A stretch of DNA of 64,000 nucleotides from Syntrophales bacterium (GTDB lineage Bacteria > Desulfobacterota > Syntrophia > Syntrophales > PHBD01). Made by a program: the position numbers. Each line of letters opens with the position of its first letter. The stretch's first letter is position 1. The stretch is taken from contig OY764159.1 in the NCBI GenBank assembly GCA_963668175.1, positions 2,592,001 to 2,656,000 on the forward strand. Reading direction: 5' to 3'. Of the stretch, positions 25,313 to 31,300 are shown in pieces.

Positions 25313-28300
25313 TTAGCAGGCTGTTGAAAAACGCCCATCTGTCGTTTATCACCTTCAGGTGACGTCGCGCCGCAAGCCTCGTCAATCGACATACCTCTAT
25401 GTATGCCTCATTCCTCAGCTTTTGCGCGTCTTACATCTGGACATTTTTGAACAGCCTGTTTGTAATCGAGTTTTTCAAAAAGCTGTTAATATGAACCTAT
25501 AAGCTATAGGTCGAATGACACAAACAGCAATCCAACAGCACGTGCCTTCTTAGGGTGTAGCCTCGGAATTGGAAGCAGCCTCGGAATGGGTGGACATCCG
25601 GTAACCGGGGATAGACTTAAGATGTGACAGAACTATACTGGACGATAGCCGCTGTAACACAAAAATGTAAGATTATCAAAAGAAAATTGAAACGCCCGAA
25701 GGCGGCGATAACAGGGCGAAATTCCCTGTCCCCGGCGGCTTCGGCGGGGGTGATAACGTTACCTGAACCGGTAGGTCAGGGGAAATATCCGTTTTCTCCT
25801 TGAGAAAACTTATCACCGCGTCCCCTGAACAGGGGATGGACGTCCCCTGACCAGGGGCGCGTGGCCCGGAATTGCGGAACTTGTATATTGCAAATTCATT
25901 CAAATCGAGAAATGAATTCTCCAATTTGGTCAAATCTATTTAATTGAATCAGATATAAAATTCCCACAGTGAATAATATAAATGGTATCGAAAGCATAAT
26001 AAAATAAGAGCCATGATATAAACCCAACGTTGCGAAAAAAATAAATACTAAGGCTACAATAAGAGAGCTATAATTAACAATTCCTTTAATTTGAAGAATC
26101 TGATCGTTGTACTTAATAAAAATGAATCCCCTCATTATGGGTGTATATACGAGAAAGCTTGCAGATAGCATTGATTCCCTGAAGCCAATTTCGCTACTGC
26201 TAAATTCATGAAAAATTATCGGTTGAAACCATTTACTTCTATTTTGCGCATTCAATTCTTCTATGGGCGGTATTTTCCTGAAATTATATTCTTTGGAATA
26301 AATCACTAACCCTCTGGTGAAAAGGGTTCTGGACCAAGTCGATTCTAAAGACGCTTCCAGCACAATAATTGCGATGACTGTTAGTACCCCGATAATAATC
26401 ATGGTCTCGTTCATCTTTCTTAACCCATGATATGTTTCACAACAATCGGTAATTCTTGGGACCCTTATTATATAGAGGAAAAAATCGGCGAATAAGTGCC
26501 GCGTCACCTGACCAGGGGAGCGTGCTCACTGACTCGGGGAGGTGTTCCCGGCATTAGGCTACTGATTAAGAGTCGGTTGTTCTTCTCGCAGTCTTTGCCG
26601 CCATCGGAGCAAATGCCGTCCGACAAGAAAACATGTATATTTTTGTATTGAAATACAATATTATTAGGCGTATTTAATATAGTCATATAGAGATTTCACG
26701 AATCATTTCTACTCCTGCACCCCCCGGAGGGTCGCACTTCCATGTCTGCAACAAAGAAGAGCAATATATCAAGATCGTTATTTCTTTGAAAGGAGCATAT
26801 CGCATATGATTCATCCCGTTAGATTATATCAATCCGTTTATCGCATCATAACCGCTTTCACAATTTTTGTAATTTTGACAGGGTGTGCAGGGGGACGCGA
26901 TTTCACACGTCCTGATCCCGGAAGCCTTCAGCTTGGCAAAACAACATATGAAGAAGTCATTCAGAAATATGGAGATCCGCTTCGCCCGACAACAAAAATT
27001 ATAGATGGAGAAACGGTAAACGAAATTTCTTATTCATATGCGTATGCTGTGCCTTACACGACTACGGTACGCTCTCGCTCGTCTTCATTTTCTTTCTGGA
27101 AGGGCGCGTTGATTGGCTATCGATACACGAGCTCCTTCCCTGAGGATAATGCCAAATTTGACGATGGAAAAGTTTCCGCAATTACACGTGGTGTAACAAA
27201 GAAACAACAAGTCATCGATTTGCTGGGTGTGCCGGCAGGTTATTCTCAATATCCGCTTATTAAAGAAAAGAATACCCTGGGTTTGGTTTACACAGCCTAC
27301 GAAACGTGGCGCATACCGTTCACACCCACTCTGCGTTATATCACTAAGACCTTGATCGTTACCTGCGGGCCGGATGATATCGTCATTTCTACGGAACTTT
27401 CATCCTCTGAGTCGAAATAATGCCTTGATGCGAGCAGATTAATTCCAGGGACGCCATCCCCCCTAGTCAGGGGACGCGCCCATTTCCGGGGACACGGTGC
27501 TGAATAGATGGAAAAATCGATATATAAGTAACGCCTCCCCTGACGGGGAGATCGTGTGCCCGGAATTGCGGATATATCGTGGATCAATGAGTATCCAAGT
27601 ATAAGAATTCAAATATACTTTATATAATCCATTCCTCTTGTCAAGCGGGTATTATGTCGCAATAGGCTTATGCCCGGTTCTCGGCGGTGCGGGGTGCTGA
27701 CTGCTGCGGGGAGTCTTTCAAATGAATAAAAAACCCCCTCCCTCCCCATGGATAGGGGAAAGAGGGGGCGGATGAATTGGTTATTTCCTCAGAGTCCTAT
27801 GCGTCTATTACGCCCAGGGTTTCAGCCCGGCGATCCTCGCGCCGGCGAGGCGGCCGAAGGTAACGGCGTTCGTGAGGTGCCAGCCGCTCCGGTAGCCCAC
27901 GCTGTTCGTGTAGCCGCCCGCAACGTGGCCCGCCGCATAGAGGCGGGGGATGATCTGCATGTCGGGGTCGAGGACGTGGGACTCGTCGTCGATCCGGAGT
28001 CCCCCCATCGTCATGACGATGCCCACGAGGCCCTTCCATCCGTAGAAGGGAGGCGTCTTCAGTTCGATCAGGTACTTGGGGTTGCGGCGGAACTGGGCGT
28101 CTTCCTTCTTCGCCACGGCCTGGTTGTAGGCCTCCACGGTCTTCTTGAGGCCCGCGGGGTCGATGGAAAGCTTTCCCGCCAGCTCTTCCAGGGTGTCGGC
28201 CTTCTTGATGATGTAGCCGTCGCCCTTGATCCCCTTGAGGAAAAGCTCCTGCTGTCCGCGGAAGTTCGTGGAGAGGCGGGGATTCGCCGCGATGTCCTTC

Positions 28301-31300
28301 GCCGCCGTTTCGTCGAAGACGCAGACGAACTGGTTGTTCACCTTCTGGACCTCGGGCATCAGCGGCGTGTAGTGGCCCTGGACGATCTCGTCGCAGAAGC
28401 GCCTGCCGCCCTTGTCGACGAGGATGAGGCCGCTCCTCGCCAGGAGGTCGTAGCGGCACCAGAGGGTGTACTTGCCCGGGGCGACCTCGACGCAGTGGGG
28501 ATGGCCCTCGGGGGAGAAGCCCGTGATGTCCGCGCCCAGTTTCTGGGCCATGCGGATGCCGTCGCCGGTGTTGCCCGGGTGGCCGACGAAGATCGAGCCC
28601 TTGAGTTCCGGGAAGTGGCCCTCGATGTAGGGCTGGTTGGCGGCGAAGTCGCCCGTCGCGATGAGGACGGCCTTCTTCACCTTGATGTTCATGACCTTGC
28701 CTTTTTCGCCCACGCACTCGACGCCGGCCACCTCGCCCAGGGGCGTGGACAGGCCGCAGTTGTCCAGATAGAGCCTCGTGGCCTTCGTTTCGAGGAGGAT
28801 GGGCACCTTGCGCTTACGCACCTCGCCCGTGAGGGCCTTCATGAGCTTCGCGCCGCCGTTGGCCTCGCGGTAGCAGCGGTCCACCGTGTAACCGGGCAGG
28901 GGATCGACGTTGGTCCACTTCAGGCCCGCGGCCTGGAGGAACTTGTACGTGTCGAGGGCGTTCTCGATGAGCTTGCGGGCCAGCTTCGGGTTGACGCCGT
29001 TGTTCGACGTCTTCATCGTGTCCTGGTACCACTTTTCGTTGGAATCGTTGGTGATCCCGGCGGCCTTCTGGAGGTCCGTCCCTGCCGCCATGACCGTTCC
29101 CGAGGATAGGAGGCCCGCCCCGCCGGGGAAGGGCATCTTTTCCAGGACGAGGACCGATTTGTCCCCGGCGTCGGCGGCGGCGATGGCCGCGGAGCAGCCC
29201 GCCACGCCCGCGCCGATGATGAGAATGTTGACCTCGCGATCCCACTTCTTAGGCGGCTGCGCCGCCTGCGCATCTTTGCCGCTTAAATTGACGAGGGCAA
29301 GCGAACCCAGGCCCGCGGCCGTAGCCTTCATGAATCCCCGTCTCGAAAAAGACGTCTTTTTGCGTTCTTCCGACATTTTTTTATTCCCTTTCTTTCATAT
29401 GTTGTTTCTTAACACCGATTCAGGCATTACTTCTTTTTGGAGAAATAGCCGAAGTTGTGGCACTTCGCGCAGTAGTCCTCGGAAGCGGCGTGGGCCTTGT
29501 GGCAGAGGGTGCAGCGGATCTCGCCCAGGTGGCTTTCGTGGGGGTTGGGTTTGACCTTCGCCGTCTTGGCGGCCACGGCGGCATAGCCCTTGTGGCACTC
29601 CAGGCAGCGCTCCTCGGAGGCCCTCTCCTCGGGGAAGAACGAGTCGTGGCACCCTGTGCAGGAGAGTTTCTTCAAGGCGTGCGTATGGTCCAGGTAGGAC
29701 GATTTCGCCCAGGTCTTGAAATACGGGAGCATGGCGTCGGCCTTCTCTTTGGCGGCGGCAACGCCCTTGCCGTCGGCGCCGGAAAGAACGAACTGCCCGC
29801 CGGGCCCCTGTTCGTGGCACACGCCGCAGGTGCCGGCGAATTTATCCCGGGAAAAATGGCCGTAATGGACGGGCCGCTCCAGGGGCTTGGCTGCGCCGTT
29901 GACCGAGTGGCACCCCAGGCACTGCTTGACGCCTGCGCCGGGAACCGGCGGGTGGGCCTTGGGGAGTGTGGCGGAAAGCTGCGGGTGGCAGCTTGTACAG
30001 CCTTTGGACGCGGTTGCCGTCCGGGCGGTGCCGGAAAAGAGCAATACGGCGGCCGCAAGGGCGATTACCGTTGTCGTTAAAAAGAGTTTCTGTTTCATGG
30101 GTGTTTGAACAGGCCTTTCTTTAAAATATCCCCAAGTATAAAACCGGGCCGCCGGTCTGTCAAATACAAAATCCGGCCTTTCCTCATGAAAATATTCATG
30201 AATGTTGAATTGTATGAATATAGTGTATGCACGAATCTGTTATCGGGAGAGCGACTTTCAGGTAACCGACGGCGGGGACCTCATGGCGTATTCCATGAGG
30301 CGTATGGCGTTTGTGGTTTCCGCCCGCCGGGATATGCACTTGCCGCCGGAAAATGCAACGGCCTGTTCGCGTGAACGGACCGAAAAAAAGGCCGGTTCCT
30401 GCCGCAGCGTCCGGATAACGTGACAATATTGTGCATCCGTTTTTTCGCAATGGACCAATTCGGAATAACCGGAAACGCCCCCTGATAACGGCAGGCGGAA
30501 GGCGTTTTCGTATTGTAGTAATGAAATCGAATAGATGTGTCATGGCGTGGCTCCCGCCGACACGGCCGTGCGTCGCGAATCCCCTTTGACGGCCCGGGAA
30601 TGCCTAACGTCCGCCGACGGGCGAACGGACAATAATGGAACATGGCAAGGAAGGACGGCGCCCCGGAACTTCCGGGCCGTTATTCCCGCGGTTGAAAACG
30701 TGCTTTTCCTTGCGGAATGTGCTAAGCACGCGGTCGGGCCAGCCGGACGGCAGGCGTCGGCACGGCCGCCGGACCGGGAAATACGCTCGCGAATGTTCCG
30801 CCACGATGCCGTTTTGTTTCGTAAATGTCCCTGCCTTTTTGGAACAAAATTGTCCACAATTTATCTTGATGGAACGAAAATGTAACTCATGGCACCGGTC
30901 CGCCTTGTGTAACATGTTGAATATGCTGATATTATAGAATGAAAGAGTGGCAAGAAAATTGCAATTAGCGTGGATCATTACAGTCGTATAGGCTGCCGCG
31001 CCGCGCCGTAAACCCGGAGTGGCGAGGCTTGTTTGCAAGGCCGAGCGGCGCTCTTCCCGTCGAAGGCGCTTAAGGCAATAGAAATGCTTACTTACATACA
31101 AAATACACCATACAAGGAGAGCGCATGAAAAGAACGGTCCCAATCGCAGCATCGGAAAGAAGTTACGCGGTCAAGAAGGAGAAGTGCCAGTCCGTCTCAG
31201 GCTATTACGGCGAGGATACCTTCAATTGCAGGGTCATGAAGGACCGGCTGTCCACCGAGACATTCAAGAAACTCATGGCCATCATCGACGAGAACAAGAC

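What a model noticed while it worked through the whole genome (the two positions that open the first line are those of the whole stretch)
27808..30098. Twenty-three paralogs of periplasmic flavin (FccA/UrdA-type) reductases in a member of the 'syntroph' order
The genome encodes 23 paralogs (29-37% identical to the query g02366) of the soluble fumarate/urocanate/acrylate-reductase flavoprotein family. Of 24 inspected, 20 have twin-arginine signal peptides; eight lie next to a small multihaem cytochrome c3-type gene (e.g. g02366/g02367), and many lie beside PAS sensor kinases. Boldest reading: this organism is not a classical obligate syntroph but a versatile anaerobic respirer that uses many unsaturated organic acids as terminal electron acceptors, each paralog a different one. 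New: such a reductase arsenal is not described for Syntrophales, and none of the substrates is known.
Evidence so far: Copy number: a six-frame search with g02366 at E<=1e-30 gives 23 matches here. It gives 0, 3, 3, 4, 4, 5, 5 and 7 in the 8 other genomes of family PHBD01, and 0-1 in 8 genomes of other Syntrophales families. Annotation: NCBIfam names them 'flavocytochrome c' or 'twin-arginine translocation signal'. The best Swiss-Prot hits are only 27-53% identical, to Shewanella fumarate, urocanate and acrylate reductases and others. Export and partners: RR motifs occur in 20 of 24 N-termini printed. FAD_binding_2 lies next to Cytochrom_c3_2 at 8 places here, and that pair occurs in 78 of 338 Syntrophales genomes. 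Other respiration: a complete dsr set is present, but there are no sulfate-activation Pfam hit [...]
(Added by a program. Inside this text positions count along the whole contig: contig position 2,592,001 is position 1 of the stretch shown here. "Call 12" and the like, gene names such as g00115 and contig names such as C1 are that model's own, and its searches are not shown. The text may have been shortened before it was handed on; [...] marks where a part breaks off. The agent that wrote the report below was given it as the finding of a first reader that could run no searches.)

Follow-up and report, generated by a model that had tools for sequence, protein, structure and literature searches.

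The report
Periplasmic flavin reductase arsenal in Syntrophales
One uncultured Syntrophales bacterium carries 24 copies of a family of mostly exported flavin enzymes, several paired with multi-haem cytochromes, which probably let it dump electrons on many organic compounds; the kind of system is already known from gut bacteria, Shewanella and Geobacter.

Summary
The 4.57 Mb genome has the query flavoprotein plus 23 paralogs. Twenty have a twin-arginine signal, 2 a Sec route and 2 no signal. Eight sit next to a multi-haem cytochrome gene and one is fused to a cytochrome.

The finding's locus is a two-gene operon: promoter-like site, Sec-exported 7-haem cytochrome c, Tat-exported FAD flavoprotein, terminator-like hairpin. 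This is the architecture of the characterised split flavocytochromes Mrd/Mcc, ArdAB and Cgr1/Cgr2.

The query enzyme is not FccA/UrdA-type in its active site. It lacks the catalytic Arg402 and the His504 of Fcc3 and has Tyr at the Arg544 column. Thirteen of 24 paralogs share this 'Tyr type'; 11 keep the Arg/His set. One of those, p04, is a true FccA homologue.

The family is common in the order: 115 of 339 Syntrophales genomes have at least one copy. Other genomes that I counted in full have at most 13. Kinase adjacency is weak (3 of 24 within 500 bp).

Substrates, direction of catalysis and energy conservation remain untested. Verdict: a new member of a known kind, the largest arsenal among the genomes counted.

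The parts
30135..30163 (-). sigma-70-like promoter (TTGACA, 17 nt, TATACT; 11 of 12 matches), 37 nt upstream of the cytochrome start codon
   Evidence: This is a consensus match only; 3 sites were found in the 3.9 kb region against 1.2 expected.
29427..30098 (-). heptahaem cytochrome c, 223 aa. It has a Sec-type signal peptide, an N-terminal c7-like tri-haem part, and a C-terminal tetra-haem domain of the kind fused to FccA. It is the proposed electron donor to the flavoprotein.
   Evidence: 7 CXXCH motifs. PF14537 at E 3e-20 on residues 140-215 and PF14522 on residues 21-96. The tetra-haem part aligns with all 9 other partner cytochromes; the haem-binding C165, C168, H169, C196, C199, H200, C210, C213 and H214 are invariant.
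27808..29376 (-). Tat-exported FAD flavoprotein, 522 aa (paralog p13). It is the catalytic subunit, with a 'Tyr-type' active site.
   Evidence: PF00890 at E 2e-52. Tat motif SRRGFMK. E 1e-50 to FccA and 5e-45 to UrdA among PDB chains. AF2 model with pLDDT 79; best fold match is UrdA 6t86, TM 0.88. Active-site columns.
27733..27769 (-). terminator-like hairpin (15 pairs, 10 G-C) followed by a T run, 39 nt after the flavoprotein stop codon
963..2576 (-). second paralog in the window (p12), 537 aa, Tat motif SRRAFLR, Tyr type, no adjacent cytochrome. A Flavin_Reduct gene and a Sulf_transp gene lie upstream on the same strand.
33390..35900 (-). MASE3-PAS hybrid histidine kinase, the nearest sensor to the operon. 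It is separated from the operon by 1 kb of non-coding DNA and a divergent glutamine synthetase III gene, so a link is not shown.

Best explanation
The locus is a two-gene operon for a split flavocytochrome c that works in the periplasm.

Shown from sequence:
- The cytochrome (7 haems c) has a Sec-type signal.
- The flavoprotein has a Tat signal, an FAD-binding Rossmann motif, and the FccA/UrdA fold.

Inferred:
- The tetra-haem domain of the cytochrome docks on the flavoprotein as the fused domain does in FccA.
- It passes electrons one at a time to FAD. Reduced FAD transfers a hydride to an activated C=C bond of an organic acceptor, and a nearby acid supplies the proton.
- In this protein the Arg that protonates fumarate in Fcc3 is absent. 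Subfamily-invariant Tyr336, Tyr495/Arg496 and Arg308/Tyr309 are the candidates. The substrate is therefore not fumarate or urocanate bound in the classical way, and it is unknown.
- Electrons probably come from periplasmic [NiFe] hydrogenase or selenocysteine formate dehydrogenases, or from menaquinol through the NrfD/NrfC-like complex with 13- and 10-haem cytochromes. The genome has no CymA/NapC homologue.

The operon is one of 24 paralogs, of which 22 are exported, that give the organism a set of alternative organic electron sinks. The set is old and composite. No two paralogs exceed 67% identity. About half have orthologues in the sister genus. The query's own orthologues are scattered across phyla.
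For: Architecture. Tat flavoprotein plus Sec multi-haem cytochrome, 51 bp apart, framed by a promoter-like and a terminator-like site. This matches three characterised systems:
- Mrd (526 aa, Tat RRDFLK) with Mcc (231 aa, Sec, 7 CXXCH) (PMC4427408, section 7 read).
- ArdAB, where activity needed both genes (bioRxiv 10.1101/2024.02.11.579808, abstract and section 17 read).
- Cgr1 (PF14537) with Cgr2 (Tat, PF00890) (PMC5953540, passages read).

Fold. PDB sequence hits to FccA at 1e-50 and UrdA at 5e-45. Foldseek best match is UrdA, TM 0.88.

The same cytochrome domain is fused to paralog p04, which scores 650 bits against Shewanella FccA over the haem and flavin parts.

Co-inheritance. Cytochrome homologues at 72, 54 and 44% identity share longest-contig lengths with flavoprotein orthologues at 82, 70 and 61%. 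Two of 8 species-representative orthologues have a tetra-haem cytochrome directly upstream.

Cytochrome inventory. 9 of the 16 ORFs in the genome with at least 2 CXXCH belong to these flavoproteins.

Electron sources present. One [NiFe] hydrogenase large subunit, two TGA-containing molybdopterin frames, an NrfD/NrfC-like operon with 13- and 10-haem cytochromes, and cytochrome bd, which implies a quinol pool.

Direction (inference, with recalled redox potentials). Enoate/alkanoate couples lie near 0 to +30 mV, so reduction is the favourable direction for an anaerobe whose other acceptors are low-potential.

Regulators. GerE/LuxR-type regulators lie within 500 bp of 3 of 24 paralogs against 1.1% of other genes (P 0.0025). 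This is the pattern seen at cgr.
Against: - No activity, expression or substrate data exist. No RNA run was listed.
- Six of 8 species-representative orthologues of the query have no cytochrome within the 1.5-4 kb fetched on either side. These include the closest one, 72% identical, in another Syntrophales family, so the partnership is not obligatory.
- The proton-donor Arg and both substrate His of Fcc3 are missing, so the mechanism is extrapolated.
- The fold is shared with oxidative enzymes: 3-ketosteroid dehydrogenases and cyclohexanone dehydrogenase.
- No CymA/NapC-type quinol dehydrogenase is present, so the electron input is a guess.
- Sixteen paralogs have neither a neighbouring cytochrome gene nor a fused cytochrome domain.
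- Docking of the two proteins was not tested, because the complex-prediction job could not be queued.
Confidence: 0.6

Rival explanations
1. Oxidative role. The query and the other Tyr-type paralogs are periplasmic dehydrogenases or desaturases of the KstD or cyclohexanone-dehydrogenase kind. They would introduce a C=C bond next to a carbonyl and hand the electrons to the cytochromes, and from there to the quinone pool, cytochrome bd or the MtrAB-like outer-membrane conduit.
For: - The best NCBIfam model for p01, p12, p19 and p23 is a 3-ketosteroid-delta-1-dehydrogenase model, and TcuA (a dehydrogenase) for p09 and p17.
- Structural neighbours of the query model include 3-ketosteroid dehydrogenases and cyclohexanone dehydrogenase.
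- Tyr replaces Arg at the Fcc3 Arg544 column in 13 of 24. That catalytic Tyr residues are typical of KstD is recalled, not tested.
- A DmsE/MtrA decahaem cytochrome with an MtrB/PioB porin, and cytochrome bd, exist as possible outlets.
Against: - None of those NCBIfam hits comes near its cut-off (for example 182-251 bits against 789).
- For the query, the FccA and UrdA matches are stronger than the KstD matches, both in sequence and in fold.
- Tyr-type clades in gut bacteria are proven reductases (Little et al., section 12 read).
- Oxidising a saturated C-C bond needs a high-potential acceptor. This anaerobe has little apart from cytochrome bd (inference).
Confidence: 0.15
2. Electron sink or detoxification without respiration. 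The enzymes reduce reactive unsaturated compounds (acrylate-like, quinone-methide-like, lignin- or humic-derived) in the periplasm using H2- or formate-derived electrons. This relieves the need for a syntrophic partner or removes toxins, but conserves no extra energy and does not define the lifestyle.
For: - No quinol dehydrogenase of the CymA/NapC type is present.
- Periplasmic hydrogenase and formate dehydrogenases could feed the cytochromes directly. Oxidising the donor and reducing the acceptor on the same side of the membrane gives no charge separation (inference).
- Relatives of p24 occur in cultured syntrophs such as Syntrophus gentianae.
- Acrylate toxicity is discussed for ArdAB (bioRxiv 10.1101/2024.02.11.579808, section 17 read).
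Against: - An NrfD/NrfC-like complex with multi-haem cytochromes, and DsrMKJOP, could couple quinol or cytoplasmic electrons to the periplasm.
- Maintaining 24 diverged paralogs with regulators suggests a nutritional pay-off.
- In gut bacteria such arsenals support respiratory growth (Little et al., abstract and section list read).
Confidence: 0.17
3. The query pair is an ordinary fumarate (or urocanate) reductase, and the 24 copies are largely redundant.
For: Public annotations of relatives read 'fumarate reductase flavoprotein subunit' or 'urocanate reductase'. TIGR01813 'flavocytochrome c' is the query's top NCBIfam hit.
Against: - The query has Gly334, Val454 and Tyr495 where Fcc3 has Arg402, His504 and Arg544.
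- It scores below the TIGR01813 cut-off and has no FMN_bind domain.
- Paralogs are at most 67% identical to each other, and the query is at most 34% identical to any other.
- A separate paralog, p04, already fits FccA.
Confidence: 0.03

Closest known systems
Mrd/Mcc methacrylate redox system of 'Geobacter sulfurreducens AM-1' (Arkhipova et al. 2015, PMC4427408; abstract and section 7 read)
   Same: - A two-gene operon.
- Flavoprotein of about 520 aa with a long Tat signal (Mrd 526 aa, RRDFLK; query 522 aa, SRRGFMK).
- Sec-exported cytochrome of about 230 aa with 7 CXXCH (Mcc 231 aa; query partner 223 aa; p24 partner 243 aa).
- Homologues occur in delta-proteobacteria and are reported as transferred together.
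- The cytochrome is less conserved than the flavoprotein, as seen here.
   Different: Sequence relatedness to Mrd could not be measured, because its sequence was not on hand. By its active-site columns the query is Tyr type. The p24/p03/p15/p21 clade, which has long Tat signals and is Arg type, looks the likelier Mrd counterpart (inference). The substrate is unknown.
ArdAB acrylate reductase of Shewanella woodyi (Bertsova et al., bioRxiv 10.1101/2024.02.11.579808; abstract and discussion read)
   Same: A periplasmic split flavocytochrome c, with a flavoprotein and a separate cytochrome gene. Both genes are needed for activity, and the system is substrate-induced under anoxia.
   Different: ArdAB is fed in a Shewanella background that has CymA (recalled). 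This genome has no PF03264 protein. ArdA's catalytic-site residues were not compared.
Flavocytochrome c3 fumarate reductase FccA/Fcc3 (PDB 1qjd, 1d4c) and urocanate reductase UrdA (PDB 6t85-6t88)
   Same: The same fold and FAD domain. The tetra-haem domain is of the same Pfam family (PF14537). Paralog p04 is a true homologue, at 650 bits over both domains.
   Different: - The query is split, not fused.
- Its partner has 7 haems, not 4.
- It lacks Arg402 and His504 and has Tyr at the Arg544 column.
- It has no FMN_bind domain, unlike UrdA.
- It is about 30% identical.
Cgr1/Cgr2 cardiac glycoside reductase of Eggerthella lenta (Koppel et al. 2018, PMC5953540; passages read)
   Same: A PF14537 cytochrome gene followed by a Tat-exported PF00890 flavoprotein with divergent active-site residues. 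A LuxR-type regulator lies nearby, as at 3 of 24 paralogs here.
   Different: - Cgr1 is described as membrane-anchored and NapC/NirT-like. The partner here has a cleavable-looking Sec signal.
- The NCBIfam Cgr1 model gives 36 bits against a cut-off of 340.
- Cgr2 needs [4Fe-4S] clusters; this was not examined here.
Reductase arsenals of gut Eggerthellaceae, Erysipelotrichaceae and Burkholderiaceae (Little et al., bioRxiv 10.1101/2022.12.26.521950; abstract and sections 5, 12, 16 read)
   Same: Tens of signal-peptide-bearing PF00890 paralogs per genome. There is one Arg-type clade and there are Tyr-type clades, the same split found here. The evolutionary history is complex, with gain and loss.
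   Different: - The phylum and habitat differ: Desulfobacterota, non-gut by the labels of related records.
- There is no parallel expansion of molybdopterin enzymes (7 PF00384 hits).
- Electron input is through c-type cytochromes rather than flavinylated or membrane partners.
- 24 copies is at the low end of their 'high reductase' class (more than 30 flavin plus molybdopterin enzymes).

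Membership tests
PF00890 FAD_binding_2 soluble fumarate-reductase superfamily | Pfam match above the gathering score, plus the N-terminal dinucleotide-binding GxGxxG | tested here: met
   179 bits against a cut-off of 20.4. G55, G57 and G60 are invariant in all 24 paralogs.
PF00890 FAD_binding_2 soluble fumarate-reductase superfamily | Two-domain FAD/capping fold | tested here: met
   AF2 model with pLDDT 79. Foldseek TM 0.88 to UrdA 6t86 and 0.65-0.68 to Fcc3.
Flavocytochrome c fumarate reductase (FccA/Fcc3; TIGR01813) | NCBIfam TIGR01813 score above its cut-off | tested here: not met
   The query scores 267.9 against 285.45. 14 of the 24 paralogs are above the cut-off and 10 are below.
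Flavocytochrome c fumarate reductase (FccA/Fcc3; TIGR01813) | Catalytic and substrate-binding residues His365, Arg402, His504 and the Arg of GANRLGG. The residue names appear in PDB entry titles. | tested here: not met
   The query has His292, Gly334, Val454 and Tyr495 (followed by Arg496) at these columns. 11 of 24 paralogs keep the full set.
Flavocytochrome c fumarate reductase (FccA/Fcc3; TIGR01813) | Tetra-haem domain fused to the N-terminus | tested here: not met
   The query has a separate upstream gene. Only p04 is fused.
Urocanate reductase UrdA | FMN_bind domain carrying covalent FMN as the electron entry point (recalled for UrdA) | tested here: not met
   No FMN_bind hit on the query at E up to 0.001.
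Mrd/Mcc-type split flavocytochrome c | Tat-signal flavoprotein and Sec-signal multi-haem (4 or 7 CXXCH) cytochrome encoded in one operon | tested here: met
   compared with PMC4427408 section 7.
Mrd/Mcc-type split flavocytochrome c | Orthology to Mrd, and methacrylate reductase activity | not testable with these tools
Respiratory-like flavin reductase arsenal (sensu Little et al.) | PF00890 protein with a predicted signal peptide | tested here: met
   22 of 24: 20 Tat, 2 Sec; p10 and p20 have none. Signals were judged by motif and by eye, not with SignalP.
Respiratory-like flavin reductase arsenal (sensu Little et al.) | 'High reductase' genome: more than 30 flavin plus molybdopterin reductases | tested here: inconclusive
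   24 flavin genes plus at most 7 PF00384 matches. Several of those are formate dehydrogenase-like frames with TGA.
Cgr1/Cgr2 | Cytochrome matching the NCBIfam Cgr1 equivalog | tested here: not met
   36.4 bits against a cut-off of 340, and only residues 176-215 match.
3-ketosteroid dehydrogenase (KstD) family | NCBIfam equivalog score above the cut-off | tested here: not met
   The query scores 160 bits against 789. The best among the paralogs is 251 bits against 789.

The most novel reading that the evidence does not exclude
The query orthogroup is a new substrate class of periplasmic cytochrome-fed reductase that has moved horizontally between several lineages. The group is Tyr type, with invariant His294, Cys295, Glu297, Arg308, Tyr309, Tyr336, Tyr495 and Arg496. 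It comprises about 30 clusters at 52% identity or more, then a gap down to 37%. Its members sit in Syntrophales, Syntrophorhabdus, Methylomirabilales and Burkholderiales. With its 24 paralogs, this PHBD01-family organism would make a living mainly by respiring a spectrum of organic acceptors with H2, formate or fatty-acid electrons, rather than as an obligate syntroph. That would make 'organic-acceptor respiration' a general trait of part of the Syntrophales.
Probability: 0.22. Interest if true: 0.65.

Novelty: new member of a known kind. Interest (0 to 1): 0.42.

Why it matters
Syntrophales are usually modelled as partner-dependent fermenters. The only paper in the held library that names family PHBD01 proposes it as a syntrophic propionate oxidiser and says that no reports on its metabolism exist (PMC13248872, passages read).

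A genome with 22 exported flavin reductase-like enzymes, 9 of them wired to c-type cytochromes, suggests that members of this order can use organic compounds as electron sinks. That would change how electron flow, H2 and formate budgets and the fate of unsaturated or aromatic acids are modelled in digesters, aquifers and sediments.

The finding also yields a tractable set of unassigned enzymes for substrate discovery: 13 Tyr-type and 10 Arg-type besides the FccA-like p04. The concept itself, the enzyme family and the gene architecture are already established elsewhere, so the advance is one of taxonomic and ecological reach, not of mechanism.

Tried and rejected
- Complex prediction of the flavoprotein (A1, residues 39-522) with the tetra-haem domain of the cytochrome (A3, residues 125-223) and 4 haems. 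Docking is untested.
- Expression. No RNA holder was listed for window 27700-30200.
- Rfam. No family reached gathering score anywhere in the window, so the 1 kb non-coding stretch upstream of the operon stays unexplained.
- Sigma-54 promoter (TGGCAC-N5-TTGC). There are 3 sites in the window, none upstream of the operon.
- CymA/NapC route. Rejected, as there is no PF03264 match in the complete genome.
- Futalosine pathway marker PF02621. Not found. The classical men genes were not searched.
- Earlier findings of the scan. Three notes exist on this genome, all on unrelated loci, and a word search found nothing.
- Substrate hints from the neighbours of orthologues. TctC binding proteins lie in 3 of 8 loci, DASS transporters in 2 and peptide/opine-type ABC parts in 2. 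TctC genes are recalled to be very numerous in Burkholderiales, so I give this little weight.
- Copy numbers from the large order and phylum searches cannot be used. Only 3-4 candidates per genome were scored there. Only the 15 + 12 genomes re-searched by handle and the 9 family genomes are full counts, and I chose the handles by their number of first-look candidates.

Full report
**What is at the coordinates.**
- Window 27808-29376 (-) encodes a 522-aa protein. It has a twin-arginine motif (SRRGFMK) and PF00890 FAD_binding_2 at E 2e-52.
- 51 bp upstream, window 29427-30098 (-) encodes a 223-aa protein with a Sec-type signal and seven CXXCH motifs. Its C-terminal 80 residues match PF14537 (Cytochrom_c3_2, the domain fused to FccA). 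Its N-terminal part matches the tri-haem Cytochrome_C7 family.
- A promoter-like site (TTGACA-17-TATACT, 11 of 12) lies 37 nt before the cytochrome start. A 15-pair hairpin with a T run lies 39 nt after the flavoprotein stop.
- The unit is therefore a two-gene operon. The flanking genes are two unannotated envelope proteins, PFOR and a divergent type III glutamine synthetase, and they give no functional hint.

**Copy number and export.**
- The window lies in a single 4,567,304-bp contig. phmmer of the query against all its ORFs returns the query and 23 paralogs (E 8.7e-64 to 1.3e-34), with nothing weaker down to 1e-5.
- Twenty N-termini carry an RR Tat motif. p14 has a Sec-type signal. p04 is a fusion whose likely start (Met68) gives a Sec signal, seven haem motifs and then the flavoprotein. 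p10 and p20 have no signal.
- Eight paralogs have a cytochrome gene 51-146 bp away, with 4, 4, 7, 6, 4, 4, 4 and 7 CXXCH.
- Of the 16 ORFs in the genome with two or more CXXCH, nine belong to these flavoproteins.

**Comparison with relatives.**
- With the query protein at E 1e-30, the family gives 23 matches here against 0, 3, 3, 4, 4, 5, 5 and 7, exactly as reported. With a profile of all 24 the counts are 24 genes against 0, 5, 5, 5, 6, 6, 7 and 9.
- The statement that other Syntrophales families have 0-1 is not representative. 115 of 339 genomes of the order have at least one match. In the 15 genomes that I re-searched in full, chosen for many first-look candidates, the counts are 13, 10, 7, 7, 6, 6, 6, 6, 6, 6, 4, 4, 4, 4 and 4.
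- In a sample of 401 genomes of the phylum, 188 have a match. Twelve high-candidate genomes counted in full have 10, 7, 4, 4, 3, 3, 3, 3, 3, 2, 2 and 2.
- PF14537 occurs in 168 of 339 genomes of the order, with nine matches here. By coordinates it sits next to a flavoprotein match in at least 25 genomes (against 82).
- So the system is common in the order, and this genome holds the largest set among those counted.

**Two active-site types.**
- The alignment to Fcc3 and the alignment of the 24 paralogs show that eleven keep the fumarate/urocanate-type set. These are p02, p03, p04, p07, p10, p11, p15, p16, p20, p21 and p24. They have the Arg402 equivalent in an R(R/T)D or DRK context, HH(T/C)MGG at His504/505, and N/V/S-R-(L/V)-G at Arg544.
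- Those eleven form one clade (support 98/94).
- The other thirteen, including the query, lack these residues and have a Tyr at the Arg544 column.
- The query has His292, Gly334 (then His335-Tyr336), Val454 and Tyr495-Arg496.
- This is the split that Little et al. describe between their clade 1 (two Arg) and clades 2-4 (Tyr), all of which contain proven reductases (section 12 read).
- The query scores below the TIGR01813 cut-off (267.9 against 285.45). Fourteen of the 24 paralogs are above it. No paralog reaches any equivalog cut-off.
- p04 comes close (517 against 542 for PRK06481) and scores 650 bits against Shewanella FccA over the haem and flavin domains. It is the one plausible fumarate reductase proper.
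- The AF2 model of the query (pLDDT 79) matches UrdA best (TM 0.88), then Fcc3, then 3-ketosteroid and cyclohexanone dehydrogenases.

**Age and origin of the set.**
- No two paralogs exceed 67% identity, and the query's nearest paralog is 34% identical.
- I built a tree of 65 sequences: the 24 paralogs, 40 homologues from the sister genus and the order-level orthologue. Three fragments under 420 aa were dropped.
- In that tree p01, p03, p16, p17/p09, p18/p06, p19, p20, p21, p24 and probably p15 have family orthologues. p02, p04, p05, p07, p08, p10, p11, p12, p13 (the query), p14, p22 and p23 have none.
- The query belongs to a sharply bounded orthogroup: 30 clusters at 52-94% identity, and the next hit is at 37%.
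- Among species-representative genomes its eight orthologues (54-72%) sit in a Syntrophaceae MAG, a Syntrophorhabdus MAG, a 'delta proteobacterium' MAG, a Methylomirabilales MAG and four Betaproteobacteria/Burkholderiales MAGs. This patchy spread is best explained by transfer.
- 19 of 23 aligned members keep the Tat motif.
- Only two of the eight orthologue loci have a cytochrome (tetra-haem) directly upstream. However, three closer metagenomic relatives appear to share contigs with heptahaem cytochrome homologues, judged by equal longest-contig lengths.
- Invariant residues of the orthogroup are listed.

**Electron supply (inferred).**
- The genome has no NapC/NirT/CymA protein.
- It does have the following:
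  - a [NiFe] hydrogenase large subunit and two molybdopterin frames with in-frame TGA (formate dehydrogenase-like);
  - an operon of an NrfD-like membrane protein, an NrfC/DsrO-like Fe-S protein, a 13-haem c7-repeat cytochrome and a 10-haem cytochrome;
  - DsrMKJ(O)P with DsrC;
  - a DmsE/MtrA decahaem cytochrome with an MtrB/PioB porin;
  - cytochrome bd.
- Any of the first three could reduce soluble periplasmic cytochromes. Which one does is unknown.
- Only seven PF00384 matches exist, so the expansion is specific to flavin enzymes.

**Regulators.**
- 71 of 3611 called genes carry a HisKA-HATPase core. One lies within 500 bp of 3 of 24 paralogs and within 3 kb of 5 of 24, against 4.0% and 9.8% of comparable genes.
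- GerE/LuxR regulators (24 in the genome) lie within 500 bp of 3 of 24 paralogs against 1.1% (P 0.0025).
- So a sensor or regulator is adjacent at six paralogs (p03, p05, p07, p10, p11, p20). At some others there is a response regulator or PAS protein. There is none at the query.

**Comparison with what is known.**
- The gene pair has the architecture of Mrd/Mcc (PMC4427408), ArdAB (bioRxiv 10.1101/2024.02.11.579808) and Cgr1/Cgr2 (PMC5953540).
- Arsenals of signal-peptide-bearing PF00890 paralogs are described for three gut families (bioRxiv 10.1101/2022.12.26.521950).
- The held library has one paper naming PHBD01. It says that nothing is known of the family's metabolism and proposes syntrophic propionate oxidation.
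- Searches combining Syntrophales, Syntrophia or Smithella with flavocytochrome, urocanate reductase or flavin reductase terms, and Desulfobacterota with respiratory or flavin reductases, returned nothing on this subject (listings only).
- Relatives of p24 at 68-79% identity are already annotated as flavocytochrome c in Syntrophus gentianae and in Smithellaceae and Syntrophus MAGs. Possession of such genes therefore does not by itself argue against a syntrophic lifestyle.

**Verdict.**
- The best reading is a periplasmic, cytochrome-fed reductase of an unknown organic acceptor. It is one of 24 diverged paralogs that give this organism an unusually broad set of potential electron sinks.
- It is a new member (new lineage, largest set counted in its phylum sample) of a known kind of system.
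- The 'FccA/UrdA-type' label, the kinase association and the lifestyle inference are over-stated.
- Substrates, direction and energy coupling need experiments.

Noticed in passing
G000:C1:3253408-3256449 (L024:3409-6450): A DmsE/MtrA-family decahaem cytochrome (247.9 bits, above the cut-off of 192) lies next to an MtrB/PioB-family outer-membrane porin (208 bits, just below the cut-off of 240). This is a porin-cytochrome conduit for extracellular electron transfer in a Syntrophales genome. No MtrC-like partner was seen among the ORFs with at least 2 CXXCH.
   Followed up: partly
G000:C1:1388586-1392950 (L022:4587-8951): An operon of an NrfD-like membrane protein, an NrfC/DsrO/TtrB-like Fe-S protein, a 13-haem cytochrome built of c7 tri-haem repeats and a 10-haem cytochrome. 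It is a candidate quinol:periplasmic cytochrome oxidoreductase and the only such module besides DsrMKJOP.
   Followed up: partly
window 963-4104 (-): The second paralog in the window (p12) is preceded on the same strand by a Flavin_Reduct-domain gene (2595-3095) and a Sulf_transp (YeeE/YedE-like) gene (3217-4104). This is an unusual combination for a Tat-exported flavoprotein.
   Followed up: no
window 30099-31124: About 1 kb without a convincing ORF lies between the operon's promoter and the divergent glutamine synthetase III gene. No Rfam family matches and there is no sigma-54 site.
   Followed up: partly
window 25896-27420: A low-GC patch (45.5% against 55.8% for the genome) lies directly downstream of the operon. 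It holds two proteins without any Pfam match: a 203-aa membrane protein and a 204-aa lipoprotein-like protein.
   Followed up: no
window 16248-16262, 20100-20114 (-) and 62491-62505 (+): There are three exact matches to the sigma-54 promoter core TGGCAC-N5-TTGC, against 0.09 expected from shuffles.
   Followed up: no
G000:C1:3712234-3715050 (L019:2850-5666): A larC-like (Ni_insertion), larE-like (PP-loop) and larB-like (AIRC) gene trio for the nickel-pincer cofactor lies convergent with paralog p23.
   Followed up: no
G000:C1:1219373-1221013 (L021:4374-6014): A 546-aa protein with 7 CXXCH motifs is distantly NrfA-like (110 bits against a cut-off of 595). No NrfH is present in the genome.
   Followed up: no
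G000:C1:3315845-3323800 (L018): The densest cluster: a PAS hybrid kinase, a PAS-GerE regulator, the signal-less paralog p20, the Tat paralog p21 with a tetra-haem cytochrome, and the Tat paralog p22 with a second tetra-haem cytochrome. The second cytochrome carries a long insertion and gave no Pfam hit at E 1e-5.
   Followed up: partly
G000:C1:1378782-1380221 and 3299335-3300792: Two molybdopterin-enzyme frames of about 1040-1055 aa each contain one in-frame TGA. This is consistent with selenocysteine formate dehydrogenases. A selB-like and an fdhD-like gene lie near paralog p01 (L003).
   Followed up: no
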